Assembly: GCA_001805445.1 (NCBI GenBank)
Contig: MHGF01000029.1
Coordinates: 4,270 to 68,269 of the forward strand
Length of the DNA: 64,000 nt
DNA from: Omnitrophica WOR_2 bacterium GWF2_43_52
GTDB taxonomy: Bacteria; Omnitrophota; Gorgyraeia; Gygaellales; UBA12090
Direction of reading: 5' to 3'
The position numbers and the translations under genes are program-made. Of this stretch, positions 5,120-36,385 are shown piece by piece; position 1 is the stretch's first letter; each line of letters starts with the position of its first letter. The notes beneath the pieces are model-generated. The model had not been told where the DNA came from, did not search any database, and was given only the letters and a program-made list of their open reading frames with translations.

Positions 5120-5205
5120 TTTAAATTGCTGCATTTCAAACTGTTAAACTGCTAAATGGCTAAACTGCTTAACAGTTTAACGCTTTAACACTTTAACAAT
5201 TTAAA
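5120..5205. repeat. Period-8 palindromic array (AAACTGCT units followed by TTAACNNT units)
   Basis: aaactgtt|aaactgct|aaatggct|aaactgct|taacagtt|taacgctt|taacactt|taacaatt. The period is exactly 8 nt and the second half is the reverse complement of the first. Confidence 0.6.
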
Positions 5206-5478
5206 ATGGATTGGCGTATTTTTTTTACCGCATTTACCACAATACTTGTCGCGGAATTAGCGGATAAAACTGAGATGGCAGTCTTAAGCCTGACCGCGAA
5301 GACTAAATCTCCCTGGCCGATATTTTGGGGGGCAATGCTGGCGTTTGCGGTAGCAACTCTCTTAGCGGTTTTGTTAGGGGATGTGGTGGCAAAGTTTGTG
5401 CCTATCCATATCCTGCGTTTTGTCAGCGCAGGGATATTTATTCTTATCGGGATTTTAACTTTATGGGGTAAGCTATAA
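5206..5478 (+). CDS. UPF0016/GDT1-family (TMEM165-like) membrane protein, single-repeat form
   Basis: 90 aa with 3 TM helices and the E-x-G-D-K-T-type motif ELADKTE. Confidence 0.55.
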   Translation: MDWRIFFTAFTTILVAELADKTEMAVLSLTAKTKSPWPIFWGAMLAFAVATLLAVLLGDVVAKFVPIHILRFVSAGIFILIGILTLWGKL

Positions 5479-5502
5479 TATCTTGTTAACCAAATAAAGT
5501 TT

Positions 5503-5535
5503 CGTGTACCGTGTACCGTAACGGTAAACGTAACA
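5503..5535. repeat. Short palindromic array with GTACCG/CGGTAC core
   Basis: gtgtaccg gtgtaccg taacggta aacgtaac. The same core recurs at 16297-16350 upstream of glnK. Confidence 0.45.
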
Positions 5536-5580
5536 TGTCTTCAAGATATAACTATTATTTTATGAAAGTTACTTTGTAAG

Positions 5581-6210
5581 ATGCAGGAAACGGAAGCGGT
5601 AAAAGAGGCGGCGAAACTTATCGGGATAGCCATCCGCACCGCACCCAAAAGCGCTGGGGTTGACGATATTTCGTATACGATAGTGAGTGATTCTGAAAAG
5701 GCAGCATCGGCAGATGAAATCAGAAAAATCGCGGCCTTTCTGATTAAAGAAAATAGGGAAGCAAAGACGAAAAAGGCAATAGAGTTGGATTGGCATAGCG
5801 ACGCGGAGGTGATTGACAAATCAGATTGCCTTATACTTTTAGGAGTGAAGGGCCGTAAACCATTGGGGTTTAATTGCGGGGGCTGCGGCTTTAAAGGCTG
5901 TCAGGAATTCATGAGCGCTAAGTCGCCTGAAACTATCTTTATGGCGGGACCCTTTTGTATGTTTAAGCTTTTGGATTTAGGTATCGCCGTCTCAAGCGCT
6001 GCCAAGGCAGCGGCACATTTTAATATTGATAACCGTATTATGTACCGGGCAGGCTTGGCAGGATACAAGTTAGCTTTATTGAAAGAGTGTAATCCTGTTA
6101 TAGGTATTCCTCTTTCCGCCTCTGGTAAAAATATCTATTTTGACCGTAAGGAAAAGGTAGAAGCCAAAGAACTTTGGAGGCAGATTAATAGTTCTCTTCT
6201 TTCTAAATAA
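5581..6210 (+). CDS. Cys-rich ferredoxin-like protein (DUF2148-like), function unknown
   Basis: The CGGCGFKGC cysteine cluster is the only recognisable feature. Confidence 0.35.
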   Translation: MQETEAVKEAAKLIGIAIRTAPKSAGVDDISYTIVSDSEKAASADEIRKIAAFLIKENREAKTKKAIELDWHSDAEVIDKSDCLILLGVKGRKPLGFNCGGCGFKGCQEFMSAKSPETIFMAGPFCMFKLLDLGIAVSSAAKAAAHFNIDNRIMYRAGLAGYKLALLKECNPVIGIPLSASGKNIYFDRKEKVEAKELWRQINSSLLSK

Positions 6211-6257
6211 TGAGCTATTAGCAAGAATTCGGTAAGGAGTGCGGTAATATGTTGCAA

Positions 6258-6420
6258 ACGGATATCAGGGCATCTAGGGGATTAGGATTTGGGTATCGGG
6301 ACATCGGGGAATCAGGAAAAAGACCGTTGTGTTGTTCCCGACATCCTGATATCCTGATTACCAAATTCTGAGCACCCGATTACCTGATTTCCGCAGTTAA
6401 GATGGTTAACTACACATAGT
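6258..6420. repeat. Palindromic array of ATCAGGG/ATCGGGG units followed by CCCGAT/CCTGAT units, upstream of the lrp-family gene
   Basis: atcagggc atctagggg attagga tttgggt atcggga catcgggg aatcagg ... cccgac atcctgat atcctgat taccaaat ... cctgattt. The flanks AGTGCGGTAATATGTT (5') and ACACATAGTATACGAG (3') are identical to those of the element upstream of glnN. Confidence 0.65.
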
Positions 6421-6437
6421 ATACGAGGGGGAAAGCA

Positions 6438-6923
6438 ATGGATGAAATTTTAGAGATTTTAGAAAAAGACGCGCGCACCAGTCCGGAAGAAATTGCCAAG
6501 ATGCTTCATAAGGATGTTTCAAAGGTAAAGCAGGCAATAAGGAAATATGAGAAAGAGGGGGTAATCTTAAAATACAAAGCGGTAATCAATAAAGAGCTTA
6601 CCCGTGACGAGGAGTCTGAGGTGCGGGCACTCATCGAGGTAAATATCGTGCCGCAAAAAGACTTAGGTTTTGATAAGATTGCAGAGAGGATTTATTCGTT
6701 TCCCGAGGTTACGAGTTGTTACCTTATTTCAGGAACGTATGATTTGTTGGTAGTCATTGAAGGTAAGAATATGCACACGGTTTCGAATTTTGTTGCCGAA
6801 AAGCTTTCTTGTATGGAGAATGTTAGGGGAACCGTGACCCATTTCCTGCTTAAGAAGTATAAGGAGGATGGGGTAATGTTGAAGCATAGAGAAGAGAATA
6901 AGAGGATAGCGATATCGTATTAG
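6438..6923 (+). CDS. Lrp/AsnC-family transcriptional regulator
   Basis: 161 aa with an N-terminal HTH (ILEILEKDARTSPEEIAKML) and a C-terminal RAM domain. Confidence 0.8.
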   Translation: MDEILEILEKDARTSPEEIAKMLHKDVSKVKQAIRKYEKEGVILKYKAVINKELTRDEESEVRALIEVNIVPQKDLGFDKIAERIYSFPEVTSCYLISGTYDLLVVIEGKNMHTVSNFVAEKLSCMENVRGTVTHFLLKKYKEDGVMLKHREENKRIAISY

Positions 6924-7046
6924 CGTATAGCGTGTAGCACATAAGCTGATTAGTTTATGGGTAGGCAGTAGATAGTAATAAGAAAAGATGTTTTTTGTTT
7001 TACTAAACAGCTAACGAGCTAAACAGCTAATGAACTAAGCATTGTT

Positions 7047-8201
7047 ATGAAAGATATTATTTCTAAAGTAGTCCAAGAAATGCAACCTTCAGGTATCCGT
7101 GCCTTCTTTGACCTTGTGCTGGGAATGAAGGATGTCATCTCTCTGGGCGTGGGTGAGCCGGATTTTGTTACCCCTTGGAGTGTCAGGGAATCTGCTATCT
7201 TTTCCTTGGAACAGGGGTATACCAGCTATACCTCGAATAAAGGGATGATGAAGCTCAGGCTTCAAATTGCGCGTTTTCTTAAGAATCATCATGAAGTTAC
7301 CTACGATCCAGACGATGAAATCCTCATTACTGTGGGAGTGAGCGAGGCCTTGGATTTAGCCATGAGGGCTATTATAAACCCTGGAGATAAGGTTTTAATT
7401 CCTGAACCCTGTTATGTTTCTTACGGGCCAGTCACAGCGCTTGCCGGGGGTATCCCTGTGTATGTTTCAACCGCCCCTACAGGCTTTAAAATTACACCTG
7501 AGGCAATTGAGCGGCACTGCGATACGAAAACCAAAGCCATCATTATTAATTATCCTTCTAATCCTACGGGAGTATCGTATAGTAAGAGGGATCTGGAGTG
7601 TTTAAAAAAGGCTATCCTTAAGCATAAGCTTATATTAATTAGCGATGAGGTCTATGATGAGCTTACCTATGATTTCGCGCATACTTCGTTTGCGGCGCTC
7701 TCCGGGCTAAAAAACAATACCCTTTATCTAAACGGATTTTCAAAAAGCTATGCTATGACCGGTTGGCGGGTTGGGTATGCCTGCGGCCCGAAAGAGATAA
7801 TAGCGGCTATGACTAAAATTCACCAATATACCATAATGTGCGTGTCTATAACTAGTCAGATAGCAGCCTGTGAAGCTTTGCAATCGGGGAGAAAAGCTGT
7901 CGAAGAAATGAAGCGTGAGTACCGGCGCAGAAGGGAATTTGTGGTAGATAACCTCAATAGGATAGGATTATCCTGCAATAAGCCTCAAGGGGCGTTTTAT
8001 GCCTTTGCTTCGGTAAAAAACACCAGCTTAAACTCAATAGATTTCTGCCAGCAGTTACTTAAAGAGCAGAAAGTGGCGGTAGTTCCCGGCAACGCCTTTG
8101 GAAAGTCGGGAGAAGGGTATATCCGCATTTCCTATGCCTCCAGCTTTAGCAATTTAAGAGAGGCGTTAAGGAGGATGGAGATATTTTTAAAGGGATTGTG
8201 A
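7047..8201 (+). CDS. Class I/II pyridoxal-phosphate aminotransferase (aspartate/aromatic type)
   Basis: 384 aa. NPTG motif and PLP-lysine context SKSYAMTGWRVGY. Confidence 0.8.
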   Translation: MKDIISKVVQEMQPSGIRAFFDLVLGMKDVISLGVGEPDFVTPWSVRESAIFSLEQGYTSYTSNKGMMKLRLQIARFLKNHHEVTYDPDDEILITVGVSEALDLAMRAIINPGDKVLIPEPCYVSYGPVTALAGGIPVYVSTAPTGFKITPEAIERHCDTKTKAIIINYPSNPTGVSYSKRDLECLKKAILKHKLILISDEVYDELTYDFAHTSFAALSGLKNNTLYLNGFSKSYAMTGWRVGYACGPKEIIAAMTKIHQYTIMCVSITSQIAACEALQSGRKAVEEMKREYRRRREFVVDNLNRIGLSCNKPQGAFYAFASVKNTSLNSIDFCQQLLKEQKVAVVPGNAFGKSGEGYIRISYASSFSNLREALRRMEIFLKGL

Positions 8202-8250
8202 GATAGAAATGCGAGTGAGCAAAAAGGCTTAAAAAAGGAGTAGAGCGGCG

Positions 8251-8700
8251 ATGTTAGAGGAAAAAATTTTAGAGGATTATAAGCAAGCATTGAAGGCCAA
8301 AGACGCAGAAAAGGTGTCTACCATTAGTTTTTTACGTTCACAAATGAAAAATCTAGCCATAGATAAAAGGCAAAATGCTTTAACCGACGAAGATGTGATA
8401 AGTGTTTTAAGAAAGCTGGTTAAACAGCGCAGGGATTCCATCGAGCAGTTTAAGGCCGGCAACCGCCAGGATTTGGTGGAAAAGGAGGCCAAGGAGCTTG
8501 AGATATTGTTGGCATACCTGCCCCAACAGGTTTCTGATGAGAAAATGAAGGAAATCATTGAAGAGGTAGTGAAGGCAACGGGTGCAACCAGTATTCAGGA
8601 TATGGGGAAAGTAATGAAGGAGCTCATGGCTAAGTTTGCCGGCAGGTCTGATAATAAATTGGTGAGTGAATTAGTGAGGCAGCGTTTAACGCAAGGATAG
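8251..8700 (+). CDS. GatB/YqeY-domain protein
   Basis: 149 aa with YqeY-like sequence throughout. Confidence 0.65.
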   Translation: MLEEKILEDYKQALKAKDAEKVSTISFLRSQMKNLAIDKRQNALTDEDVISVLRKLVKQRRDSIEQFKAGNRQDLVEKEAKELEILLAYLPQQVSDEKMKEIIEEVVKATGATSIQDMGKVMKELMAKFAGRSDNKLVSELVRQRLTQG

Positions 8701-8702
8701 CT

Positions 8703-9002
8703 ATGGCAACGGTTAAGAAACTGGTGGATATTTCCCATCACATTGCTAAAGAAAAAGGCTGGTGGGATGATGCTAGGAATGATGGGGAATTAATTGCCCT
8801 GATGCATTCAGAACTTTCAGAGGCGCTTGAGGCAATGCGTAACCATGCCCAAGAAGAGGATGTTGCTGAGGAATTGGCAGATTGCTGTATCCGGATATTT
8901 GATTATTGCGGGGCACGCGGTATAGATTTGCAAAAGGCAATTACGCGGAAGATACAAAAAAACCGTAAACGCCCTTATAAGCACGGGAATAAAAAATTTT
9001 AA
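8703..9002 (+). CDS. MazG-like nucleotide pyrophosphohydrolase (all-alpha NTP-PPase)
   Basis: EexxE-type metal-binding helices (SELSEALEA, EELADC). Confidence 0.55.
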   Translation: MATVKKLVDISHHIAKEKGWWDDARNDGELIALMHSELSEALEAMRNHAQEEDVAEELADCCIRIFDYCGARGIDLQKAITRKIQKNRKRPYKHGNKKF

Positions 9003-9017
9003 GGAAAGATAATAAGG

Positions 9018-9080
9018 GGTCGATAGTCGATGGTCAATAGTCAATAGGGAAAACATAGGCTATAGACCATAGACCATGAG
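9018..9080. repeat. Palindromic array with GTCAATAG/CTATAGAC core
   Basis: tcgatag tcgatgg tcaatag tcaatag ... ctatagac catagac cat. Confidence 0.5.
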
Positions 9081-9095
9081 CTCTCCATTGGTCTA

Positions 9096-9386
9096 ATGTT
9101 TACACACGCCGTATTATTTGAGATTAAGGCTAAGGAAATCAAGGCTTATTGTAAAGACTGTAAGATGTGGGCCGGTTATGCCAAGAAGGCTAAAGGGTTT
9201 ATCCGCTATCTTACCGTAAAACGCCTTGAGTATAAGAACCAGTATGCCTCAGTTTACGAATGGAATTCCAAGCAGGATCACGGCCGTTTTATGAAAAAAT
9301 TCCATGACTGGCTGGTGAGCAAATCAAAAGCAAAAGTAAAGGTCATAGGGTATTATAATCTTAAGGTAATAGATGAGATTAGGTAA
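9096..9386 (+). CDS. Hypothetical small protein, possibly an ABM/Dabb-like fold
   Basis: The ORF is defined by the six-frame track; I have no independent support for the fold. Confidence 0.3.
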   Translation: MFTHAVLFEIKAKEIKAYCKDCKMWAGYAKKAKGFIRYLTVKRLEYKNQYASVYEWNSKQDHGRFMKKFHDWLVSKSKAKVKVIGYYNLKVIDEIR

Positions 9387-9483
9387 GCACGAATTTGCAC
9401 GAATAAAAGGCCGAATGGACACTAATTTATTAAAAATAATTTATTCGTGTTAATTCGTGTGAAATTCGTGTCTATTCGTGTTT
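9386..9483. repeat. Palindromic array of CACGAAT units followed by ATTCGTG units
   Basis: gcacgaat ttgcacgaat aaaaggccgaat ... attcgtgt taattcgtgt gaaattcgtgt ctattcgtgt. The reverse-orientation units are spaced at 11 nt. Confidence 0.65.
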
Positions 9484-9500
9484 AAAAGGAAGAAATAATC

Positions 9501-10265
9501 ATGGCGGACGCGAAATGCCCGGGGCAGAACCCGCAATACTGGAAGCCGGAAGATGCCGTTGAGGTGCAATGCCCTCAGTGTAAAGAGATAGTCGAGTTTT
9601 TTAAGGATGAACCGAAAAGGAAATGTTATAACTGCAAGCATGAGGTAATTAATCCTAAAGTTGATTTTGGCTGTGCGTTGTGGTGCCCCAAGGCAGTGGA
9701 ATGCATTGGCCAGGAACGTTATCAACAGCTTTTAGCTTCCGCGAAACAAGCGCCGGCAACAGATAAATACAGGACTAAAAAGGATCTTTTGGTTTTTGAA
9801 ATGGAGCGATATTTCGGGAAGGATACTAAAAGTATTACCCATGCCAAAAAAGTGCTTAGTTTTGCCGAACAGCTTTTGGAAAAGGAAAAGGCGGAGCCTT
9901 TAGTGGTGATTGCCGCGGCTATTCTTCATGATATAGGGATATGTAAGGCAAAAGAAAAGTACGGCAGCCACGCGGCCGGGTATCAGGAAATTGAAGGCCC
10001 CGCGGTTGCCCGGGAAATGATGGAAAAAATCCAGCTTAAAAAAGAAGTCGTTGATGAAGTCTGCGCGATTATTGCCCATCATCACAGCCCTAAGGAAGCG
10101 GAAACATTAAATTTCAAGGTGCTCTATGACGCGGATTGGCTGGTGAATTTTAAGGATGAGTATGCCAGGTATCATAAGGAAGAGGTATCTGAGGTAATAG
10201 AGAGGGTTTTCTTGACAAAAAGTGGTAAGGAGTTGGCGCGGGAACTTTATATTTTGCCTGAGTAA
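9501..10265 (+). CDS. HD-domain phosphohydrolase with N-terminal Cys4 zinc ribbon
   Basis: Two Cys pairs (CPQC, CYNC) form a zinc ribbon. The HD motif is AAILHDIG and a downstream IAHHH is present. Confidence 0.65.
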   Translation: MADAKCPGQNPQYWKPEDAVEVQCPQCKEIVEFFKDEPKRKCYNCKHEVINPKVDFGCALWCPKAVECIGQERYQQLLASAKQAPATDKYRTKKDLLVFEMERYFGKDTKSITHAKKVLSFAEQLLEKEKAEPLVVIAAAILHDIGICKAKEKYGSHAAGYQEIEGPAVAREMMEKIQLKKEVVDEVCAIIAHHHSPKEAETLNFKVLYDADWLVNFKDEYARYHKEEVSEVIERVFLTKSGKELARELYILPE

Positions 10266-10390
10266 GAGATGAGAAAAAGGCATTCTCTATGCAGAACGAT
10301 AGCCCGTTAGGTTTCAAAGATTTTGTGAGGGACATGTAACCTAACGGGATTTTTGTTTCCAAAAATGATGCCTTCAAAAAGAGCATAGCT

Positions 10391-12334: not shown

Positions 12335-13646
12335 GACATCTTTAAGAGATTTAATCAATTCGTTACAGTTAGCAAAAATCTACCCAAGAGAACATCCTCA
12401 ATGTAGGAATGCTCTGGATAAGGCGTATGAAAGTTTGCAACATCTCCTCCAAGGCAAGGAAGAGATTGTGGTGGGGATTGTCGGTGATGAATTAGCTTTT
12501 GAGAAGGAAATTTTTCTTGATTTAAGCAGGGCTGTTAAACCGCTCATCCAGTTTCTTAAGGAAAGAGGAGTGGAAAGGATTGTATTCAGACGGGGAGTGC
12601 GAAGAGAAGAGCTTCTCGAATTTATTGTTTTCTTGATTACTCCAAAAGAAGATATTGGAAATAATGCACAACACTACTTATTACTTAAGGGTGTTGAAAA
12701 TATATTTGTTAGTAAAATAAGGCTATCATCTTCGTCTTCTGAAGAGGTGAGGAAATCAGTGCGTTATTTAAACTTATATCACGGCTCCCTTGATGCTATA
12801 TCGAAATCTATGAATGCAGTTTTAAATAGTCAGGCACTCGATTATATAGATCTAAAGTATGCCTTTACTAATATTACGGAGAAGTTATTCGGTGATTATA
12901 AAGATTTTCTCAAATTAACGACGTTAAAAAAGCACGATGTGAGTACATTTGTGCATATGCTTGATGTGGCGATTTTAGCCATGTATCTTTCTTATAGGAT
13001 GAACTTCAGGAAAGAAGAGATTTATAGTATTGGTATTGCCGCGCTTTTTCATGATATCGGGAAGATCTATATTTCGCGTAAAGTAATTGATAAACCTGAT
13101 AAATTGACAGATGAAGAGTTTGCCATGATGAAAAGTCATACTGTCTTGGGAGCGGAAATCCTTTTGAAATATACTGATAGCCTTGGCATCTTATCGCCGA
13201 CGGTTGCCTTCGAACATCATTTGCGATACGATGTTAAAGGTTATCCGAAATTAAGTTTTCCGCATATGCCGCATCAGGCCTCTCTTATTGTTTCAGTGTG
13301 CGATGTTTATGATGCGCTTAATCAGCGCAGGAGCTATAAAAACAGTTATTCTCCCGATATGATTTATAATTTAATGCTTAAAGAAAAGGGTGGATTATTT
13401 GACCCTGAAATCCTGGAAAGATTTTTTAAGGTGATTGGTGTTTGGCCGATAGGGGCAGTAGTAGCTTTAAGTGACCAGAGGGTAGCTGTGGTAGAAGAAG
13501 TAAATGAGGATGATATTTTTTCCCCTCGCGTTAAAATTCTTTCTCCCGATAGTAAGGAAGAGCGGATAGATTTAAGAGAAAGAAAGCCGGAAATCAAGGT
13601 AGAGCATATTGTGGAGGGGTTTGACTACAAGAAAAATTTCTCTTGA
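12318..13646 (+). CDS. HD-GYP domain protein (putative c-di-GMP phosphodiesterase) with novel N-terminal domain
   Basis: HD motif ALFHDIGK. HD-GYP signature HHLRYDVKGYPK. Confidence 0.75.
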   Translation: MQKNFETSLRDLINSLQLAKIYPREHPQCRNALDKAYESLQHLLQGKEEIVVGIVGDELAFEKEIFLDLSRAVKPLIQFLKERGVERIVFRRGVRREELLEFIVFLITPKEDIGNNAQHYLLLKGVENIFVSKIRLSSSSSEEVRKSVRYLNLYHGSLDAISKSMNAVLNSQALDYIDLKYAFTNITEKLFGDYKDFLKLTTLKKHDVSTFVHMLDVAILAMYLSYRMNFRKEEIYSIGIAALFHDIGKIYISRKVIDKPDKLTDEEFAMMKSHTVLGAEILLKYTDSLGILSPTVAFEHHLRYDVKGYPKLSFPHMPHQASLIVSVCDVYDALNQRRSYKNSYSPDMIYNLMLKEKGGLFDPEILERFFKVIGVWPIGAVVALSDQRVAVVEEVNEDDIFSPRVKILSPDSKEERIDLRERKPEIKVEHIVEGFDYKKNFS

Positions 13647-13705
13647 CAGAATTATTGTTTGTGGTATAGTTTAGGTATTGTACAAAGCTGTAAAGCGCAT
13701 AGAGG

Positions 13706-16296: not shown

Positions 16297-16350
16297 GTGT
16301 ACCGCTCACCGTAACGGTAAACTGTTGGCGGTAAACGGTAAACGAAACAG
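16297..16350. repeat. Palindromic array with GTACCG/CGGTA core upstream of glnK
   Basis: gtgtaccg ctcaccg taacggta aactgttggcggta aacggta aacgaaac. Confidence 0.45.
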
Positions 16351-17142: not shown

Positions 17143-17300
17143 CGCCGTGAGGCGAGCCGCAAGCAGGGATATCGGATGATCAGGGGATTGGGAGAAAAAG
17201 GTAATATTTTGTTCCCAATATCCTGATGCCCTGATTACCAAATCCTGATACCCTGATTGCCTGATTTCCGTATTTCACATCTATTATAACACATAGTATA
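17143..17300. repeat. Palindromic array of ATCAGGG/ATCGG units followed by CCTGAT units, upstream of glnN
   Basis: cagggatatcggatgatcaggggattggg ... cccaatatcctgat gccctgat taccaaat cctgat accctgat tgcctgat ttcc. It shares its 5' flank AGTGCGGTAATATGTT and 3' flank ACACATAGTATACGAG with the lrp-upstream element. Confidence 0.65.
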
Positions 17301-19568: not shown

Positions 19569-19738
19569 CCTAAAGCCCGACTTTGAGATATTATAAATAT
19601 TCGTTTAAGGAAAGGATAAGTGATAAATTATGAATGATAAATTTAAATTTTCCCCCCTCCATGTTTTTATGCAGGCTATTCTTGTCGTAAGGTACAACGT
19701 AAAACTTATCATTTATAACTTATAATTCATAATTTCTA

Positions 19739-26929: not shown

Positions 26930-27010
26930 AACACGAATGCAAACGGATTGTAGCGGATGCAGACAGATTGTTTTTATCCGCGACATCCGTAATCATCCGT
27001 CTGAATCAGT
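26930..27010. repeat. Palindromic array with CGGAT/ATCCG core
   Basis: aacggatt gtagcggat gcagacagatt ... atccgcgac atccgtaatc atccgtctgaatc. Confidence 0.5.
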
Positions 27011-30300: not shown

Positions 30301-33300
30301 ATTTATGCACTATATTGATTTATCAAATATAGTGGAAATTCTTTATCAGAAAGCTGGGAGAGAGCCAGAGTTGAGAAAGTATTATGAGAAGATAACAAGC
30401 GAGTTTTATAAGGAAAAATCAGTAGATAATTACAAACAAGCTGAAGAAGATGATTTGCGAAAAGATATTGCCGCCGTGGGGATAGATGATGGCACATTTG
30501 AGAAAATTTTAGAAGTTTATAAAGATCAGTTAGTAAATTTATTCTCTGCCGCCTCGCCGCTGACAACGTTGAAGGAGAAGATAAGCGGGGTGTTCGAGAA
30601 AATACAGGAAAAGATAAATGACCAAGGACTCTTAAATTATAAAGAAGAATTAGCATCATTCTTGGAGAATTTAGAAAAAGATTTAGAAAGGCCGTTAAAT
30701 GAGATAGATAATGTTGTGAACGGGCAAGGCACTCTAAAAGATGCTTTTAGCGCGATTGAAAAAATATCAACTATTCTATTTAATAAGGAAGGTGAAATAG
30801 GCAGTATCCATACCGATATCAAGTCTATGATGGTAAGTTTGCACAGGTATGAACTGCCATCGCTTATGAGGCAAATTGAAAAGAGCCTTGGGCAGAGGGA
30901 AATCACCGCCTCGCCGCTGACGAAACAGACCGTAAAAGATGTACAATTTAACCCAGGAGAAAAGGTGTTCTTGCGCGCTGAGGTTAATATGCCAACCGAT
31001 GAGCAAAGAAATATCACTGACTATACGCGCCTTAAACAGGCGTTACCTACTATCAAATATTTGATAGGACAAGGAGTGAAGCTTGTTATTGCAGGACACC
31101 TGGGCCGGCCGCAGGAGGAGAAAAACAAGGATTTCAGTTTAGATATAGTAGCTCAGGCTCTACGATCTGAGTTGCCAGGAGTAACCATTACATTTGACAA
31201 GACAATCTTTACCCCTAAAGACGCGGAAGGTTTTATTAATTCCGAGATGAAAAACGGGGATATTTTACTTTTAGAAAACGTCCGGATGAATAAAGATGAA
31301 GAACAAAAAGAAGGGATTAATAGCCAATTCGCCAAAGATTTGTTTTTTGGCATAGATAAATATGTTTCAGATGCCTTTGGGGTTATGCATAGAGAAAACA
31401 ATGTTTCAATGGTTGGCGCTCCTAAGGGGATGCCGCGTGTTGCCGGGCTTTTAGTCCAGAAGGAAATAGAGTACCTGAATAAGATTTTGAATCCTGATGT
31501 GGCAATTGTCGGAGGAGCAAAAGTATCCGATAAAATTAAAATAATAGAGAAGCTTTTAGAAAAAGCGGATAAAATTCTTATTGGCGGGGCAATGACATTC
31601 GCTTTTGAAAAAGCCATGGGGAAAGATATTGGCAATTCTAAGCTTGGTAAGAATAAGGAAGAGGCAGAAAGAGAAACGCAATTTGCAAGGCAGCTTCTTG
31701 AAAAGGCGAAAGGAAAAATAATCCTTCCTTTGGATCATATAGTTGCAGATAGATTTAATAATGATGCGGAAAGAAAATCTGCGGAGTCAGGCAAGATCCC
31801 TGACGGCTGGATGGGCTTAGACATTGGCCCTGAGACTATTAAGCATTACAGAGCAATCATTGAGGAGGCGGAAACAGTTATCTGGAACGGCCCTATGGGG
31901 GTATTTGAATTTGATAATTTTGAGCAAGGCACGAGAGTAATAGCCGAGGCAATGGCAGTGGTAAAGAAAAAAGGCGGTATCGCGGTGGTAGGAGGGGGAG
32001 ATTCTGCTTTCGCGGTAGAGAAGTTTGGGCTAGCTGGTGAAATGTCACACGTATCTACAGGAGGAGGCGCGGCCTTAAAGTTTATCGAAGATGATGGCAA
32101 TTTGCCAGGAATTCTAGTGTTAAGTGATAAAGTAGAGGGCATCACCGCCGGCCTGCTGGGAGAAGAAATGTCGGGGGTGTATGGCGAGAATGCGCAGCCT
32201 TTACGCTATGTTTCTGTTGAAGATTTAACTGAGGGGGAACTTAGCTCTTTGAGAAGTTCCATCGTTGAGCGGATGACGTTGTCTGCAAGGGAAACGGATA
32301 ATACATATAAAAATGCGCGCTTTGCGGTTGAAATAGACCAAGGTAAGATTATTGTCTGGGGGAGGTTGGAATATAATGAAAAGACAAATGCAATAAGCCA
32401 GATTATCTTCCCGAACGCTCTAAACCTGAGCGAAGATAAGAAAAAAGATATAGAGGCTGCCTTTATTCAGGCATGGGATGAAGAATCGAAAATAAATGTT
32501 CTTTACACCGCCTCGCCGTTAGAATCTACTCCAGAGATATATGTGTTGGATAATCATCTATCGCTTGCAGAAGGAGCTAAAACCGGGAAGGCTAATATTG
32601 GGCTTGCTAAATCTAGCCTATACGATGGAGGAATTTTAAATCATTCTGAGGAGCGTGCCAGGCTTGAGTGGGCTATAGGGAATGTATTAGGAAGAATACT
32701 TTATTTTGGGTATGAGCGGTTTGACAGTGAACTTAACCGCATGGTTTTTGCTGATGAAGCAGTAGGAATTTGGAAAGCAACTTTAGCAACCGAAGGTATA
32801 TCCGAAACTGATTATAAAGAATATTTTGATCTTCAAAAAGAAAAGGACAAGATTAATCGTGATAATCTGCAAGATAGCGCACGCTCTATAGTGAACAGAA
32901 TAATTAATCTTCAGTTGAAAAAACTAATAGCTTCTACAAAGGGGGAAAAGGGGTATCCAGTCAAACAAGTTGTACTTTGCGTTGGTGAGGATTTAGGTCA
33001 GCGTTACGCAGGGCGGACGCAGGATGTTTTAAGGCAGGACATAAAGGAAATTTTAAAGGACATAATGAAAGAAGATGTGCAGAAATATGGGGGTATTGGT
33101 TTGAGGATAGCCTATGAGCCGCGCTGGGCAATTGGAACAGGCAAAACGCCTACATTGGAAGAGATTCAGAATGCGCATAGATTTATAAAAGATACTCTAA
33201 AAAGCGCAGGAGTACTAGGCATAGAGCTTGATGTTGATTATGGCGGAAGCTTAAACGCAAAGAACAAAGAGATATTATCTTTGCCTGACGTTGACGGTGG

Positions 33301-36229
33301 GCTTATTGGCAGTGCTGCCAAAACCGTTGAGGCAATCAAACCGGTTATAGAGGAAGCGATTATTCAAGGGGAGAAAAAGGGGAAAATCCTCAATATCGGG
33401 ATGAACTGGAAGGCTGAAAATAGAGGAACTGGTTTAGCCCCGCTGGGAAGCTTTATGGCATTTTTCAAGAGCCCTGGTTTTAATATTGTGGGTAAGCTAA
33501 GCATAGCCATTGGAACTACCCGGGTTAGAGATGTTAAAATGGCAGTATTGGGGGTTAAAGAGTATTATAAAAAAATTTACCAAGCAGCCGCCTCGCCGCT
33601 GGCGCTGGAGAATGAAGTGAAGGTGATACAGGAAGTAAGAGAAAAATTAAATGCATATCATAGCGGTACTATACTGCAATTCTCAAACGTATCGCTATCG
33701 AACCTTATAATATCAGTCACAAAGATGGCTAACGAAATTCAGCCAATGAATCGTATGGCTTTACCCGAAGAAGCACAAAAATGGTTTGGTATTGAAGCAG
33801 GGCTTGTACGGATTCAGGCCAAAGTCAGAGAAAATATGGAAGCATATAAAAAAGAGTTGGCAGCTTTTTATGCGGAAATCGGGCAGCATTCATATATTAA
33901 ATTGGATGAAGAGCAGAAATTATACTACACTAATAAATATGCCCGTGATATTGAAACGACGAATGACGTAGATGTAATTATTGAAGCGGCAGAACATGCC
34001 TATCGGCTGCGGGAGACTTATTTAGCGCAAGAGGCACAAAAAAAGATTGTTTCTCAGGGTAATACTTCCGCCGCCTCACCGTTGACGCTTAAGGAATTCT
34101 CTAAAAAGCTTGATCAGATGCCTAATAATAAAGTGTCGTCTCACGAAGCATTTTTAGAATTAATTAAGATGGCATCAGAGCTTTCAGCCCGGGAGGAGAT
34201 ACCGGAAAATATCCAAGAGAAAATATACGCGGCAGTCAGCCGTATCATGCCTGTGGCAGGTGAATATGTTGATAAAGAGCGTAAGGATATCCCCGGGCAG
34301 GCCCGTACTATAGAACCTATCCTGGCTATAATTGAAAGCGGATTAGAAAATTATATGGTTAAAGAGGATATGGGGTTTAAATTAGTGGACGCTATTGAGA
34401 AGGCCTTAACAGGGCATCTTGCCTATTCAAGGTATACACAACAGATAGATGATGTAATAACCGCAATAAAAAAAGATCATATTAAGATAGAAAAGATTCA
34501 AGAGTTTATTAAAGATTCGTTTAGCCAGTATGATGGCATTAAAGATGCGATTGATTTTAAGAGCGGAGAAATCGCGGAGTTGCTTGAGAAAAATAAAGAG
34601 GCTAATGCATTACTCGCGTCAGTAAGGCAGGCAAAGGAGATAACCGCTAAGCAAAGCGGCAATACAATCAAAGGCACGTATATAGACCAATCCCTCTTTG
34701 ACGCTATGGCTTGGGATATAATGATCCAAAGAGTAAGAATCGATAAATTAGAGGAAATTCTGGATGAACAGGTGAGCCGGACGAATCAATTTTTTACCAG
34801 TGATTCTATCAAGCTTTTCTGTAAGGAGTTTAAGGAAGCAGGCAAAACCGGGAAAAAACGCGTATTAGTTTCCAGGTTTAATGAAATCCGGGAAGAGGGC
34901 TCAAGAACCGATAGCGAATTGATCCAGCTAAGAGATTACTTAGCCGGGATTTTAGGAGTATATTATTTAAAAGCGGCTGAGGAGGTAAGAAGCAAGCTTA
35001 CGCCACAGGATACAGTAGAATATAAAGAAGCCCTTGATGCGGCAGGACAAGTTATTGATCTTCTTCTTAAAGGTAACGTAAAGGATCAGTTGTTTTCCGC
35101 GCAATTAGATACCGTTGTCAAGGCGTGGGATAGTATGCAAAAATCCCGTTCATCGTCGGCGCTTACCGCTGAAGAATTTATTCTTGCGGTAGATGCTCTT
35201 GGGAAAATGGCCAAAGAGAAGACGATCTCATATGAAACTGCTTTTGACAGAATGGTAGGAGCGGTTTCGGCTCTTGAAAAAGATGTAGTGGTTCCTTATG
35301 CTAAAATAGCCGATGAGTTGTATTCAATAATTCACAATGGGGTGGCGCTTGACCCTTATAGGTTAACTCTCTGGGAAGATGCCAAAGAAACGTTGTTAAG
35401 AAGGAAGAAATATGCCAGAGAGGGCATTCTTGATATGATTGAAAAAAGATTAGAGATATATAAGCGTGATTTAGCGCAGAAAGCGGGTAAAGATCTTAGC
35501 AAGTGGATAGGCGCGCTCACCGCTCACTTAGGCGCAGGTATCCGCGACTATAAAGAACACATAAACTCTATTAAAAGTACTGAGGATTTATTGTTGACTA
35601 AGGTTCAAGAGTTTTCTTCGGTCAATCGAGCGGTACAGAAGAAAGAATGGTCTGATGATAAAGAGAAGTATTATGAAGCTATGAAAAGGAAAGGCGTTTC
35701 TATTGACGAATTGAAAGGGAAATTGGATGAGATAGATAAATATAACGAATTCCTCTTAACAGTAGCTAAAGCGCGAGAAGCCATCTCTGCCGGCCAAAAA
35801 TCGTCTTCGTCGTCGCTTGTCGCTCAAGAGCCTGCTCAAGACTTTGCTATCCCTGAAGCCCAAAATACCTTCGGTGGTATTGATATGACCGACAGGGCGC
35901 TGCATATTAACTTTGAGCGCTGGGGAAGCCTTGCGGATATAGAGATGGAGCTGCCAAAACTCAGTCATGTGGAAGCGATTGATTTAGACAATGAATACCA
36001 GCAGATACAGGCCATGGCCTCATCCGGCATCAGGCCTTCAGATACGCGTATTTTGGAGTTTATCGCCGCCTGCTATTATAGGGAAGAATTTAGCCAAAGG
36101 CTTTCTGAAATCACCGCCTGCCTTAAAGAAGCGCATGCCTTGGATGAGCGTGAGGGAAAAGAAAGCAGCGAGACCCTGCGTTTAGCCACCTTGCTCCCTG
36201 ATGCGTTGTACGTAAATAGCCTGAATTAA
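27362..36229 (+). CDS. Giant secreted multidomain protein (~2,955 aa) containing a phosphoglycerate-kinase domain and a triosephosphate-isomerase-like domain
   Basis: RBS AGGAGG precedes the ATG at 27362. A signal peptide (MVRKIISIVVTIGLLFNQGGVIYA) is present. The PGK motifs are HLGRPQ, IVGGAKVSDKIKIIEKLLEKADKILIGGAMTFAF, GGGDS and STGGGA. The TIM motifs are AYEPRWAIGTGKTPT and YGGSLN...VDGGLIGSAA. The conserved N- and C-terminal domains are shared with the 813-aa paralog. Confidence 0.8.
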   Translation: MVRKIISIVVTIGLLFNQGGVIYAAGELNLSSYLSQLHTSLVKPDIFRPVHLRYFSYDSLNNSYKILLDKGDYTKSPSHQDTPDASVGAGRSPEEDLVLKETAQELMDYFLIGVTLPNDTFWVNLRPDAPDTIIDPELETTDIGKIFLEADLQLKKDTASFTSPQTPEGKQYWDKLYKKAGELFGSENITIPTLTRPWIVPNEIIVRETDDSAYVYKATLKVLLEEDYLKSSQPSALSPQQYNFKDSRLKELNEYSTQLIRETIIPKLTREVNSSQRYAKLRQVYYSLILSRWFKARFNSKESQGHQVTRSQGENYINLIDRRNLTNLTSEELWDKITYFNQYKDSFNKGEYNIKEPTFTAYGQSIRSYTSGGIGIGQAILPFEADMQGQGAGSPIRGGSFQGNNPVISDAVIGADEKSIVLDENLEVVEQKPVALAASPVTVEDADQKILDILEEEFISDIFPKDVVEKFKEYKSIKISKFSNIDKDVGMPHARKDIEKLSRIKGFLRYVMNEYTKIKEKDETRARVLLNKIKILQEYLEQALGGELSVLKEFAANINAGKITVISVAILKQWEKLMADMLISERYHAFVKHLTKRNIEFSRAGSLMKILNLERAGKRATQFKIKAGETLEKKYNPGDKFIFNDVLPDIALGINFGGILTDIIVNANPLLWGNVLILPDPSKCLSQYFNKEAAIVALNLLDKFNNPGYKLGFNGPGAFASVPQLHLQGFDYFDSTGEDKLPVENAEKTSFFSNNNVSIMTLSDWAVNTIVLNGSSLDSLNKALVLLTDILHKRNQPFNIVFTKNSDNNYAVYVFPRKLEGPGGVFGTGVAFLELAGAVLFTNQNFGGVMLKDKDKENLEQRIAYLKNIRQIIFGGGTIAEDLVQSVGLDWKDVSSKLIENGWAKPKNKTEVTLTASLEQVKDSMSRVFGDKWEKIISILEIDDFRYENEKNKDGDYVYYARPKRSGESKEITPSDLSNKFMHYIDLSNIVEILYQKAGREPELRKYYEKITSEFYKEKSVDNYKQAEEDDLRKDIAAVGIDDGTFEKILEVYKDQLVNLFSAASPLTTLKEKISGVFEKIQEKINDQGLLNYKEELASFLENLEKDLERPLNEIDNVVNGQGTLKDAFSAIEKISTILFNKEGEIGSIHTDIKSMMVSLHRYELPSLMRQIEKSLGQREITASPLTKQTVKDVQFNPGEKVFLRAEVNMPTDEQRNITDYTRLKQALPTIKYLIGQGVKLVIAGHLGRPQEEKNKDFSLDIVAQALRSELPGVTITFDKTIFTPKDAEGFINSEMKNGDILLLENVRMNKDEEQKEGINSQFAKDLFFGIDKYVSDAFGVMHRENNVSMVGAPKGMPRVAGLLVQKEIEYLNKILNPDVAIVGGAKVSDKIKIIEKLLEKADKILIGGAMTFAFEKAMGKDIGNSKLGKNKEEAERETQFARQLLEKAKGKIILPLDHIVADRFNNDAERKSAESGKIPDGWMGLDIGPETIKHYRAIIEEAETVIWNGPMGVFEFDNFEQGTRVIAEAMAVVKKKGGIAVVGGGDSAFAVEKFGLAGEMSHVSTGGGAALKFIEDDGNLPGILVLSDKVEGITAGLLGEEMSGVYGENAQPLRYVSVEDLTEGELSSLRSSIVERMTLSARETDNTYKNARFAVEIDQGKIIVWGRLEYNEKTNAISQIIFPNALNLSEDKKKDIEAAFIQAWDEESKINVLYTASPLESTPEIYVLDNHLSLAEGAKTGKANIGLAKSSLYDGGILNHSEERARLEWAIGNVLGRILYFGYERFDSELNRMVFADEAVGIWKATLATEGISETDYKEYFDLQKEKDKINRDNLQDSARSIVNRIINLQLKKLIASTKGEKGYPVKQVVLCVGEDLGQRYAGRTQDVLRQDIKEILKDIMKEDVQKYGGIGLRIAYEPRWAIGTGKTPTLEEIQNAHRFIKDTLKSAGVLGIELDVDYGGSLNAKNKEILSLPDVDGGLIGSAAKTVEAIKPVIEEAIIQGEKKGKILNIGMNWKAENRGTGLAPLGSFMAFFKSPGFNIVGKLSIAIGTTRVRDVKMAVLGVKEYYKKIYQAAASPLALENEVKVIQEVREKLNAYHSGTILQFSNVSLSNLIISVTKMANEIQPMNRMALPEEAQKWFGIEAGLVRIQAKVRENMEAYKKELAAFYAEIGQHSYIKLDEEQKLYYTNKYARDIETTNDVDVIIEAAEHAYRLRETYLAQEAQKKIVSQGNTSAASPLTLKEFSKKLDQMPNNKVSSHEAFLELIKMASELSAREEIPENIQEKIYAAVSRIMPVAGEYVDKERKDIPGQARTIEPILAIIESGLENYMVKEDMGFKLVDAIEKALTGHLAYSRYTQQIDDVITAIKKDHIKIEKIQEFIKDSFSQYDGIKDAIDFKSGEIAELLEKNKEANALLASVRQAKEITAKQSGNTIKGTYIDQSLFDAMAWDIMIQRVRIDKLEEILDEQVSRTNQFFTSDSIKLFCKEFKEAGKTGKKRVLVSRFNEIREEGSRTDSELIQLRDYLAGILGVYYLKAAEEVRSKLTPQDTVEYKEALDAAGQVIDLLLKGNVKDQLFSAQLDTVVKAWDSMQKSRSSSALTAEEFILAVDALGKMAKEKTISYETAFDRMVGAVSALEKDVVVPYAKIADELYSIIHNGVALDPYRLTLWEDAKETLLRRKKYAREGILDMIEKRLEIYKRDLAQKAGKDLSKWIGALTAHLGAGIRDYKEHINSIKSTEDLLLTKVQEFSSVNRAVQKKEWSDDKEKYYEAMKRKGVSIDELKGKLDEIDKYNEFLLTVAKAREAISAGQKSSSSSLVAQEPAQDFAIPEAQNTFGGIDMTDRALHINFERWGSLADIEMELPKLSHVEAIDLDNEYQQIQAMASSGIRPSDTRILEFIAACYYREEFSQRLSEITACLKEAHALDEREGKESSETLRLATLLPDALYVNSLN

Positions 36230-36239
36230 CCGATAGCTA

Positions 36240-36385
36240 CCAATGCCCGCCAATGCCAGGCATAGTCAAGTAAGAATTGTTAATGCCTGGTATCTTAGTG
36301 TTATCAGTGCCAGACATATACAACGCGTAAACAACTTGCCTATGCCTGGCACTGTCTATTTATAGATGCCAGGCATTGCTCTTTT
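36240..36385. repeat. Dispersed copies of the palindromic motif (A)TGCCAGGCAT downstream of the giant gene
   Basis: aatgccaggcat, aatgcctggtat, agtgccagacat, atgcctggcact and atgccaggcatt, spaced about 25-30 nt apart. Confidence 0.5.

What the first reader, a model, noticed from the sequence alone, without database searches (positions are those of the whole stretch)
5120..36385. At least five further distinct 8-nt-period palindromic arrays, each with its own core sequence
The arrays are: 5120-5205 with AAACTGCT followed by TTAACNNT at a period of exactly 8; 9018-9080 with TCGATAG/TCAATAG followed by CTATAGAC; 5503-5535 and 16297-16350 with GTACCG followed by CGGTAA; 26930-27010 with CGGAT followed by ATCCG; and 36240-36385 with dispersed TGCCAGGCA palindromes. 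Together with the CACGAAT and ATCAGGG families, more than eight core sequences share the same construction (n direct copies followed by n inverted copies of a 7-8-nt unit) in 64 kb. This looks like a genome-wide mechanism that generates such arrays, or a system that uses them, and not independent coincidences. The 8-nt period differs from the ~10.5-bp helical repeat, which argues against simple face-of-helix protein-binding arrays for these. It is compatible with RNA hairpins carrying regularly spaced mismatches, or with the product of a templated repeat-synthesis process.
Basis: seen in the sequence. Interest (0 to 1): 0.7.

Follow-up and report, generated by a model that had tools for sequence, protein, structure and literature searches.

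The report
Hairpin repeat families filling Omnitrophota intergenic spacers
The short "n direct then n inverted" repeat arrays are real and belong to about ten families of small hairpin-forming repeat elements that fill roughly half of the gaps between genes in this uncultured Omnitrophota bacterium; this resembles the REP and miniature foldback elements of other bacteria more than a new repeat-synthesis machine.

Summary
The arrays exist at the stated coordinates and are far beyond chance: 14 detections in the window against about 1 in shuffles. The description needs correcting. Only 5138-5204 has period 8. The arrays at 9019-9077, 5503-5535 and 16297-16350 have period 7, and 26930-27010 has period 10. 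The region 36252-36377 is a different thing, a cluster of self-palindromic sites.

The window is an Omnitrophota MAG (GCA_003499645.1). Independent assemblies carry identical arrays, so they are not artefacts.

Each "own core" array belongs to a dispersed multi-copy family. Nine kb beyond the window, all five spacers carry arrays of the same families, and one is a second copy of the 5138 array in the opposite orientation. Paralogous copies differ by whole-unit indels. A sister species lacks the arrays in three orthologous spacers, and other species carry other cores in the same spacer.

Arm mismatches show no G-U bias and no compensatory changes. No array looks like a terminator.

Best reading: these are REP/REPIN/MITE-like foldback elements whose arms are tandem sub-repeats remodelled by slippage.

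Lead: the period-10 CACGAAT class flanks GxxExxY (PD-(D/E)XK) genes in other phyla, much as REPs flank RAYT genes.

The closest published precedent is the convergent GGGAATC heptamer pairs of Xanthomonas.

The parts
5138..5204 (.). Array A, family GTTAAA+2 nt, period 8. It has 4 units followed by 4.5 inverted units and fills the spacer between the GAF-ANTAR gene and the GDT1 gene.
   Evidence: RNA fold -14.3 on the + strand, -32.9 on the - strand. A second copy in the opposite orientation lies at L329 12099-12180.
5503..5535 (.). Array B, family GTACCG/CGGTAA, period 7, 2+2 units, in the GDT1-DUF2148 spacer.
9019..9077 (.). Array D, family GTCRATA, period 7, 4+3 units, in the spacer between mazG and a 96-aa ORF.
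   Evidence: The same core forms arrays in L013, L067 and L032.
16297..16350 (.). Array F, same family as B, with 2 left and about 4 right units, in the amtB-glnB spacer. It is absent in sister species L009.
   Evidence: The orthologous spacer holds a GTCAATA array in L013 and a GTCACAAG array in L015.
26930..27010 (.). Array I, CGGAT variant of the CACGAAT superfamily, period 10, inside a dispersed repeat of about 170 nt (26843-27010).
   Evidence: The paralog at 43945-44100 (- strand) lacks 21 nt, which equals 2 units.
43945..44008 (.). Array K, inverted paralog of I, with 2 left and 3 right units.
36252..36377 (.). Cluster O: five self-palindromic ATGCC(A/T)GGCAT sites upstream of a TTGACA promoter-like box of the atp operon. 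This is a different architecture and looks like a set of operator sites.
   Evidence: TGCCAGGCA found 4 times against 0.2 expected.
6260..6395 (.). Array C, ATCAGGG family, period 8, inside a module of about 220 nt.
17165..17270 (.). Array G, ATCAGGG family, in the glnA leader. It is absent in L009.
56309..56392 (.). Array Q, ATCAGGG-like, in the pyrH-frr spacer.
9387..9482 (.). Array E, CACGAAT family, period 10-11, 4+4 units.
51712..51808 (.). Array L, CACGAAT family, 4+4 units, in a divergent spacer.
57021..57118 (.). Array M, CACGAAT family. It ends 2 nt before tRNA-Lys.
289..328 (.). CACGAAT x4 with no real right arm, in the pstC-pstA spacer.
38355..38421 (.). Array J, CGCGAAT variant, period 10, in the atpE-atpF spacer.
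19610..19736 (.). Array H, GATAAGT family, period 7. It lies in the gltB 5' leader downstream of a promoter shared with L009, and L009 lacks the array.
57399..57488 (.). Array N, AAGTGTA family. A 15-nt unit is duplicated at 100% identity on the left arm only.
1205..1234 (.). GTCACCAG x3.8, period 8, 100% identical units, left arm only. A full 4+4 copy of this family lies at L329 10345-10442.

Best explanation
The arrays are members of about 8-10 families of small (60-220 nt), non-coding, hairpin-forming dispersed repeat elements. These elements occupy the transcribed spacers (5' leaders and intercistronic gaps) of housekeeping operons in this Omnitrophota genome and in some of its relatives. 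Each arm is a tandem array of a 6-8-nt core, contiguous or separated by 1-4 variable bases. The two arms are in convergent orientation around a 5-40-nt loop.

Shown:
- They are multi-copy families that share irregularities and flanks.
- At least two families (A and I/K) occur in either orientation relative to the genes.
- They are present or absent between sister species, and the core occupying a given orthologous spacer differs between species.
- Copies differ by gain or loss of whole units.

Inferred:
- Whole elements spread by a REP/REPIN- or MITE-like process. This would need a trans-acting nuclease or transposase that recognises the repeated cores, probably on a single-stranded DNA hairpin.
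- Replication slippage between the tandem units then expands or contracts each arm.
- Effects on mRNA (5' stem-loops, intercistronic hairpins) are by-products, or are secondarily exploited, and are not the reason for the periodicity.
For: Families and common descent:
- Four of the five CACGAAT copies (289, E, M and L329 8853; L does not) share the odd third unit AAAA(G)-CCGAAT.
- Three ATCAGGG modules share GTAATATGTT upstream and ACACATAGTAT downstream.
- I and K are 85-90% identical over about 170 nt.
- Array A has a second copy at 86% identity in the reverse orientation.
- B and F share a 25-nt core.

Genome-wide spread: 5 of 5 spacers in the next 9 kb carry arrays of families already seen in the window.

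Turnover:
- L009 (glnA 85% nt identity) lacks arrays F, G and H, although the promoter and terminator flanks align.
- The amtB-glnB spacer holds GTACCG, GTCAATA or GTCACAAG arrays in three species.
- GTCRATA and AAGTGTA cores recur as arrays in other species more often than shuffled cores do.

Slippage:
- A 21-nt (2-unit) indel separates I from K.
- A 15-nt duplication at 100% identity sits on one arm of N, and the 1205 array has 100% identical units.
- In period-7/8 arrays, mismatches are spread evenly over the unit positions.

Not RNA-selected and not operators:
- There is no G-U excess (72 against 94) and there are many transversions (136).
- Spacer bases are not mirror-complementary: 3/22 against 33/90 for non-mirror pairs.

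All strong arrays are intergenic, lie between co-oriented genes and often fill the spacer.

Precedent for a trans factor: CACGAA[T/G] arrays flank GxxExxY genes.
Against: - No target-site duplications or sharp insertion boundaries could be defined. The one sister-species comparison is too diverged.
- No transposase, RAYT or GxxExxY gene lies in the window or in 1.25 Mb of Omnitrophota loci.
- No copy-number polymorphism is seen among sampled strains at 99.8-100% identity.
- In the period-10 class, the strong conservation of cores against fully variable spacers fits sequence-specific protein binding as well as it fits mobility.
- A beneficial function, such as mRNA stabilisation or a promoter-bearing module, cannot be excluded.
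Confidence: 0.6

Rival explanations
1. The arrays are double-stranded DNA binding sites (iteron-, operator- or centromere-like) for oligomerising proteins, with one protein per core family, in the manner of omega/ParG/ParR-type ribbon-helix-helix arrays or response-regulator direct repeats.
For: - In the period-10/11 class the cores are conserved while the spacers vary freely. In E, 4/4 ATTCGTG cores are perfect and all spacers differ.
- Spacers are not mirror-complementary, and there is no G-U bias.
- The period of 10-11 bp equals one helical turn.
- Protein-bound arrays with 7- and 8-bp periods are known (own knowledge: omega heptads, ParG parH).
- Promoter-like hexamers lie next to F, G and H.
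Against: - At least 8 different cores occur in 64 kb, mostly in intercistronic gaps of housekeeping operons (atpE-atpF, pyrH-frr, pstC-pstA).
- The core occupying an orthologous spacer differs between species, and a sister species lacks the arrays. That is the opposite of regulon behaviour.
- No cognate small DNA-binding genes lie next to the arrays.
Confidence: 0.15
2. The arrays are functional RNA hairpins with regularly spaced internal loops, selected in the mRNA as 5' stabilisers, RNase III or processing sites, attenuators, or ANTAR targets.
For: - The arrays lie in transcribed positions. H is downstream of a promoter conserved with L009, and others sit between cistrons.
- Folds are much more stable than shuffles, with z from -3 to -10.
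- A GAF-ANTAR gene lies immediately upstream of array A.
Against: - There is no G-U over A-C excess on the sense strand, and there are many transversion mismatches.
- Variant cores are not compensated in the partner arm.
- Array A folds at -14 kcal/mol on the sense strand and -33 on the antisense strand, and its paralog sits in the other orientation.
- No array is terminator-like.
- The arrays lack the ANTAR dual hexaloop motif, and Rfam gives no hit.
- The internal periodicity is unnecessary for a hairpin.
Confidence: 0.1
3. The arrays arise purely locally and de novo. Polymerase slippage creates 7-8-nt simple-sequence repeats, as in LSSRs, and intrastrand template switching copies them into an inverted arm at each site independently, with no dispersal.
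For: - Heptamer and octamer tandem repeats are over-represented, also inside coding regions without partners (1205; 21180; 27580; 28267).
- Whole-unit indels and duplications at 100% identity occur.
- Mismatches are spread uniformly over unit positions.
- Mrazek et al. 2007 reported heptanucleotide LSSRs as the commonest class, as summarised in PMC4679880.
Against: - The same few cores, with shared irregular units, loops and flanks, recur at many loci and in other species.
- Spacer bases are not mirror-complementary, as a fold-back copy would require.
Confidence: 0.1
4. The arrays are a chance pattern or an assembly or sequencing artefact.
For: None found.
Against: - The detector finds 14 arrays against about 1 in shuffles.
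- Independent assemblies from different samples and pipelines carry identical sequence.
- Similar arrays occur in other species.
Confidence: 0.01

Closest known systems
Xanthomonas GGGAATC (GGGNATC) heptamer repeats, including convergent inverted repeat pairs (Rehm et al. 2015, PMC4692102)
   Same: - Tandem 7-nt units are followed closely by the same units on the other strand, in 70-75 pairs per genome.
- They are mostly intergenic, lie between co-oriented ORFs, and are transcribed.
- Repeat length differs between species while the repeat type is kept.
- The ATCAGGG family here is the same core plus one base.
   Different: - There is a single G-rich core per genome, interpreted as G-quadruplex forming.
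- Here there are at least 8 unrelated cores, mostly unable to form G4.
- Periods here are 7, 8 and 10-11.
- Some families here have a core-plus-variable-spacer design.
REP/BIME and REPIN elements with their RAYT transposases (Bertels & Rainey 2011, PMC3116915; Ton-Hoang 2012, PMC3333891). These papers were listed but not read; the features given are from my own knowledge.
   Same: - Short intergenic palindromic elements in hundreds of copies, sitting in operon spacers.
- Inverted doublets form long hairpins.
- Presence and absence differ between relatives.
- In REPs, the cognate gene is itself flanked by the repeats in inverted orientation. The same is seen here for GxxExxY genes and CACGAAT arrays in other phyla.
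   Different: - REP arms are not internally periodic.
- REPs carry a conserved GTAG-type tetranucleotide, which is not seen here.
- Usually there are 1-3 families per genome.
- No RAYT gene was found here, although only 73 kb of the genome was seen.
Long simple sequence repeats of 5-11 nt (Mrazek 2007), cyanobacterial STRR heptamers, and TAACTGA repeats of Beggiatoaceae (MacGregor 2015, PMC4679880)
   Same: - Heptamer-dominated tandem arrays lie in intergenic regions, often directly upstream of start codons that lack a Shine-Dalgarno sequence.
- Their phylogenetic distribution is sporadic.
   Different: - Those are direct repeats only. In BOGUAY there was one indirect repeat among 170 sets.
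- There is one core per genome.
Foldback (FB) transposons of Drosophila and foldback-type MITEs (own knowledge)
   Same: The long inverted termini are themselves made of tandem short sub-repeats, the unit number varies between copies, and many copies are non-coding.
   Different: They are eukaryotic, kilobase-sized, and have known target duplications. No bacterial counterpart has been described to my knowledge.
Omega (pSM19035) heptad and ParG (TP228) 8-bp operator/centromere arrays (own knowledge)
   Same: Contiguous 7- or 8-bp units occur in runs of direct and inverted orientation.
   Different: Those lie at the promoters of their own plasmid partition or copy-control genes, with one core per system. 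Here the arrays are chromosomal, intercistronic, and of many cores.

Membership tests
REP / REPIN | Short imperfect palindromes in intergenic regions, present as many copies of a few families | tested here: met
   About 20 arrays of about 8-10 families occur in 73 kb. All are intergenic.
REP / REPIN | Conserved GTAG-like tetranucleotide at the foot of the hairpin | tested here: not met
   The family alignments show no common flanking tetranucleotide.
REP / REPIN | Cognate RAYT (Y1 transposase) gene flanked by inverted REPs in the same genome | not testable with these tools
   Only 73 kb of the genome was readable. No such gene was found among the Pfam-scanned ORFs.
MITE | Terminal inverted repeats, no coding capacity, 50-500 bp | tested here: met
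   The elements are 60-220 nt with convergent arms and no ORFs.
MITE | Target-site duplication; filled versus empty sites | tested here: inconclusive
   L009 lacks F, G and H, but the flanks are too diverged to define boundaries or duplications.
Long simple sequence repeats (LSSR) | Tandem direct repeats of 5-11-nt units, longer than chance predicts | tested here: met
   TRF finds 8 arrays of period 7, 10 of period 8 and 7 of period 10 in the window. Shuffles of 1.18 Mb of other Omnitrophota loci gave the equivalent of about 1.2-1.6 arrays of each period per 64 kb.
Xanthomonas-type inverted heptamer repeat pairs | Two tandem arrays of the same unit in convergent orientation close together, between aligned ORFs | tested here: met
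.
Xanthomonas-type inverted heptamer repeat pairs | G-tract unit (GGGNATC) able to form a G-quadruplex | tested here: not met
   Only the ATCAGGG family has G-tracts. The five arrays of this finding do not.
Intrinsic terminator | GC-rich stem followed by a T run | tested here: not met
   No array was reported among the terminator-like sites of 1-20000.
ANTAR target RNA | Two tandem hairpins with hexaloops carrying A1 and G4 | tested here: not met
   The arrays lack this motif by inspection. The motif is seen elsewhere, in glnA leaders of relatives.
GxxExxY-cassette arrays (association proposed here) | CACGAA[T/G] cores at 10-11-nt spacing, CACGAAx arm first and its complement second | tested here: met
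   E, L, M and I/K fit. In metagenomes the orientation is 53 against 4.
GxxExxY-cassette arrays (association proposed here) | A PF13366/TIGR04256 gene between the arms or elsewhere in the genome | tested here: not met
   An HMM search of all ORFs in the window and in the 80 Omnitrophota loci gave no hit. The rest of the genome was not testable.
RHH-type heptad operator arrays | The array sits at the promoter of its own small regulator or partition operon | tested here: not met
   Neighbouring genes are pst, atp, gln, frr and tRNA genes.

The most novel reading that the evidence does not exclude
Each core family is the cis-acting site of its own small trans-acting nuclease. The system would parallel REP-RAYT but be built on tandem sub-repeats.

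The prototype is the uncharacterised GxxExxY / PDDEXK_3 protein, whose gene sits in the loop of a (CACGAAx)n ... (xTTCGTG)n foldback. This arrangement was seen in Chloroflexota (Anaerolineae) and Desulfomonilia MAGs and in unassigned metagenome contigs. Gene-less copies of the foldback are scattered through genomes, including this Omnitrophota one.

The period-7/8 families (GTTAAA, GTCRATA, GTACCG, GTCACCAG, GACGAAG) would then have cognate proteins that are still unidentified.
Probability: 0.2. Interest if true: 0.8.

Novelty: new variant of a known kind. Interest (0 to 1): 0.55.

Why it matters
- If confirmed, Omnitrophota would join E. coli, Pseudomonas, Xanthomonas and cyanobacteria as lineages whose intergenic space is shaped by small palindromic repeats. 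The design here is distinct: the arms are tandem sub-repeats, and many families coexist.
- The elements account for about half of the spacers in this genome. They insert hairpins into the 5' leaders of glnA and gltB and between the cistrons of the atp, pst and frr operons. They must therefore be considered in any annotation of promoters, leaders and small RNAs in these uncultured bacteria.
- Their unit-number variation could serve as strain markers.
- The by-product observation may give a first functional handle on a very large protein family of unknown function. GxxExxY (PF13366) genes were embedded between inverted CACGAAx arrays in all four loci chosen without regard to the arrays. Of the 8000 candidates scored in one database search, 7921 matched the family at E <= 1e-10.

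Tried and rejected
- Rfam at gathering threshold on the window and on 16 metagenome loci found only tRNAs and one group II intron, and nothing at the arrays. The E-value scan gave only sub-threshold hits.
- Strain comparison for copy-number slippage found nothing. The same-species loci fetched from independent assemblies are 99.8-100% identical, with no unit indels in arrays.
- The Pho-box idea for CACGAAT (period 10-11, one copy inside the pst operon) was rejected. Only 1-2 of 120 metagenome loci with the array carry pst or phoU genes.
- The terminator idea was rejected.
- The ANTAR-target idea for array A was rejected because the dual hexaloop is absent.
- I searched for inverted arrays enclosing cargo of 130-1500 nt in the window and in the 80 Omnitrophota loci. 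There was one hit, probably chance.
- Viral-contig hits to the CACGAAT pattern turned out to be mostly one phage lineage, with N4 spacers next to a conserved 194-aa protein. This is unrelated to the Omnitrophota arrays.
- Literature searches found no description of these arrays or of the gene-array link. The terms tried were Omnitrophota with repeats or hairpin, the core strings, GxxExxY, and PDDEXK_3.
- TRF consensus pairing alone was too insensitive, giving 2 pairs, so I wrote a mismatch-tolerant detector.
- A protein look-up for PstA, intended to extend the window leftwards, found no record.
Full report
**Observation**

I read the six loci named in the finding and ran Tandem Repeats Finder.
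- 5138-5169 is AAACTG[C/T]T x4, directly followed by TTAACnnT x4.5 (5169-5204), with period exactly 8.
- 9019-9047 is GTC[G/A]AT[A/G] x4, followed after a 7-nt gap by C[T/C]ATAGA x3. The period is 7.
- 5503-5535 and 16297-16350 share about 25 nt (CGTGTACCG-xxxxCCG-TAACGGTAAAC), with period 7. The second copy has two to three extra right-arm units.
- 26930-27010 has period 10, and its first unit is an exact CACGAAT.
- 36252-36377 is different in kind. It holds five individually palindromic ATGCC(A/T)GGCAT sites 24-34 nt apart, upstream of a TTGACA box of the atp operon.

So the arrays are real, but the "8-nt period" holds for only one of them.

**Chance and artefact**

Self-match in 20-nt windows is enriched only at lags 7 and 8 among lags 3-14. 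A detector that requires at least two tandemly spaced forward copies and at least two tandemly spaced reverse-complement copies of a 7-mer (up to one mismatch) finds 14 arrays in the window. Twenty block shuffles gave 0-4, mean about 1.1.

The window is contig DNSN01000012.1 of GCA_003499645.1, an Omnitrophota MAG. Ten fetched loci of the same species, from assemblies in ENA, NCBI and Logan, are 99.8-100% identical and carry the same arrays. Assembly artefacts are therefore excluded.

**Position**

Pfam annotation shows that the arrays sit in spacers of ordinary housekeeping operons:
- pstC-pstA-pstB-phoU
- ANTAR-GDT1-DUF2148-asnC-aminotransferase
- mazG-ORF-HD
- amtB-glnB-glnA-gltB
- atpE-atpF
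- pyrH-frr-tRNA-Lys

About half of the spacers of 60 nt or more hold an array. The arrays often fill the spacer from a few nt after the stop codon to a few nt before the next start codon. The same is true of the strong arrays in other Omnitrophota loci. None is terminator-like, and promoter-like hexamers lie just upstream of F, G and H.

**Families**

The arrays are not each unique.
- Within the window there are five CACGAAT copies. Three of them, plus a further copy at L329 8853, share an irregular third unit, AAAA(G)-CCGAAT.
- The ATCAGGG arrays are embedded in a module of about 220 nt with shared flanks.
- Array I and an inverted paralog K are 85-90% identical over about 170 nt.
- Locus L329 is the same species and extends 9 kb beyond the window. 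All five spacers there longer than 40 nt carry arrays of families already seen:
  - GACGAAG (period 7, here with its inverted arm);
  - the ATCAGGG module;
  - CACGAAT;
  - GTCACCAG (period 8, 4+4);
  - a second copy of array A at 86% identity, in the opposite orientation relative to the genes.

The arrays are not confined to the window, and each "own core" array is a member of a dispersed family.

**Dynamics**

- I and K differ by a 21-nt (two-unit) indel in one arm.
- N has a 15-nt unit duplicated at 100% identity on one arm only, and the 1205 array has 3.8 perfect units.
- In period-7/8 arrays, mismatches are spread evenly across unit positions, as expected for slippage products that then decay.
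- The sister species L009 (glnA 85% nt identity) has the same terminator and promoter flanks but lacks arrays F, G and H. Its amtB-glnB spacer is 23 nt against 139 nt in the window. Its gltB leader is about 27 nt against about 130 nt.
- The amtB-glnB spacer holds a GTACCG array here, a GTCAATA array in L013 and a GTCACAAG array in L015. All three cores also occur elsewhere in the window's genome.
- GTCRATA and AAGTGTA cores recur as arrays in other species more often than shuffled cores do.
- Array density varies between species. The 80 other loci have 46 detections against 15 in shuffles, concentrated in L077, L025, L013, L064 and L082. The window's genome is unusually rich in period-8 and period-10 arrays.

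**What they are not**

- Arm-to-arm alignments of 36 arrays give 997 matches, 72 G-U-type mismatches on the sense strand, 94 A-C-type mismatches and 136 transversions. There is no signature of RNA pairing selection.
- Variant cores are not compensated in the partner arm. The variable bases between cores are not mirror-complementary, at 3/22 against 33/90 for non-mirror pairs.
- Array A folds at -14 kcal/mol on the sense strand and -33 on the antisense strand, and its paralog lies the other way round.
- Gene-specific operator function is contradicted by the swapping of cores at orthologous spacers and by the absence of the arrays in the sister species.
- Rfam has no matching family.

**A system that uses one class**

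I scanned metagenome contigs for ATTCGTG-N3/4 x3. There, CACGAAT x2 lies upstream of the ATTCGTG array in 53 of 145 cases and downstream in only 4. Internal lengths cluster at about 25, about 55, 135-190, 300, 400-460 and 700-770 nt.

Where I checked, the cargos of about 400 nt are genes for GxxExxY proteins (TIGR04256, PF13366 PDDEXK_3).

As an unbiased test I took four GxxExxY homologues chosen only for lying on long contigs. All four have CACGAA[T/G] x3 immediately upstream. The start codon follows the last unit directly or within about 15 nt, or the array overlaps the 5' end of the ORF. All four also have inverted arrays immediately downstream. Each cassette is inserted between co-oriented housekeeping genes.

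This mirrors the way RAYT genes are flanked by their REPs. No GxxExxY ORF occurs in the window or in 1.25 Mb of Omnitrophota loci. A single-copy gene would not be expected in that sample, so the link to this genome is untested. The papers I could search describe PDDEXK_3 only as of unknown function.

**Comparison with the known**

- The n-direct/n-inverted architecture has a published precedent. Xanthomonas carries 70-75 convergent pairs of GGGAATC heptamer arrays per genome. They lie mostly between aligned ORFs and are transcribed, and repeat length varies between species.
- Heptamer-rich simple-sequence repeats and TAACTGA repeats upstream of start codons are also known.
- What is new here:
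  - many unrelated cores coexist in one genome;
  - the period-10 class has a core-plus-variable-spacer design;
  - about half of all spacers are occupied;
  - the core vocabulary is shared across Omnitrophota species;
  - the CACGAAx class is associated with GxxExxY genes.

I therefore rate the finding a new variant of a known kind.

**Verdict**

The phenomenon is genome-wide, but it is not a uniform 8-nt system, not RNA-selected, and not synthesised independently at each site.
- Best explanation (confidence about 0.6): REP/REPIN/MITE-like foldback elements with tandem sub-repeat arms, remodelled by slippage. The mode of spread is inferred, not shown.

Noticed in passing
L319 1400-2000; L322 650-1300; L325 1400-2000; L326 1400-2000; also L090, L119, L141, L144, L162, L177: Genes for GxxExxY proteins (TIGR04256 / PF13366, PD-(D/E)XK superfamily, function unknown) are flanked by (CACGAA[T/G])x3 arrays upstream and inverted arrays downstream. 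The start codon lies inside or just after the last unit. The cassettes sit between co-oriented housekeeping genes, and gene-less versions are common in soil metagenomes.
   Followed up: partly
window 14555-14625, with the GAF-ANTAR gene at 4417-5115; glnA leaders of L010-L087: Many Omnitrophota glnA leaders carry GCACnnnnnnGTGC followed by GAACAGAGGCGTTC, which overlaps a terminator (GAATGCCTCTGTTTTTTT). This looks like an ANTAR-type dual hexaloop antiterminator. A GAF-ANTAR gene lies near glnA in 32 of 80 loci. In the window a similar terminator sits upstream of the glnB-amtB genes.
   Followed up: partly
window 16785-16840; same position in most loci: A conserved motif, GGTTACC-N10-14-TTACTTGTA, followed by TGGTAnAAT, lies upstream of glnA across Omnitrophota species. 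It is probably a nitrogen-regulated promoter or operator.
   Followed up: no
window 16955-17060, 57222-57330, 57706-57810: There are three copies of a G-rich structured repeat (GGGGTGnGGGGAAG..CCCC..GGGGTnACAG..GGCGCCATAGGGGC). It has only a sub-threshold resemblance to the Rfam family Clostridiales-2 (E 0.002-0.04).
   Followed up: partly
window 57172-57194 and 57375-57398: The 3' end of tRNA-Lys (GTTCGAGTCACGGGCGGCTCA) is duplicated about 180 nt downstream. The duplicate brackets one copy of the G-rich repeat, which looks like the scar of an integration into the tRNA gene.
   Followed up: no
window 27580-27607, 28052-28082, 28267-28299 and 21180-21216: Tandem arrays of period 7 or 8 (GTCACCAA/GTCACAAG, AGCCCTC, GACGAAG) lie inside the reading frames of the 3007-aa ORF and of gltB. 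They use the same cores as intergenic families but have no inverted arm.
   Followed up: no
window 27206-36229: A single 3007-aa ORF has precomputed Pfam hits to GDPGP1 N- and C-terminal domains, phosphoglycerate kinase and triose-phosphate isomerase. This is an unusual giant fusion.
   Followed up: no
window 48650-49032, next to 49033-49362: A HEPN-like reading frame (MNRKAKTWLELAENDLELAKELLKRNG..HFCH*AIEKLLKA) is interrupted by an in-frame TAG. It lies directly upstream of a nucleotidyltransferase (MNT) gene. It could be a decayed HEPN-MNT toxin-antitoxin pair or a recoded stop.
   Followed up: no
L210, L219, L221-L226 and about 35 more viral loci: One phage lineage carries ATTCGTG-N4 x3 at a conserved site next to a 194-aa protein and a 71-79-aa protein. 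It is probably a repressor-operator array and is unrelated to the Omnitrophota elements.
   Followed up: partly
window 2846-2928: A small hairpin (TTCCGCG-CTTCA-GCGGAA) occurs as two direct copies 38 nt apart, between pstB2 and phoU.
   Followed up: no
window 26983-26993 compared with L003: Three SNPs are clustered within 11 nt of the right arm of array I in one strain. One changes ATCCG to ATTCG (the CACGAAT core), and another matches the paralog K. This suggests gene conversion between copies.
   Followed up: partly
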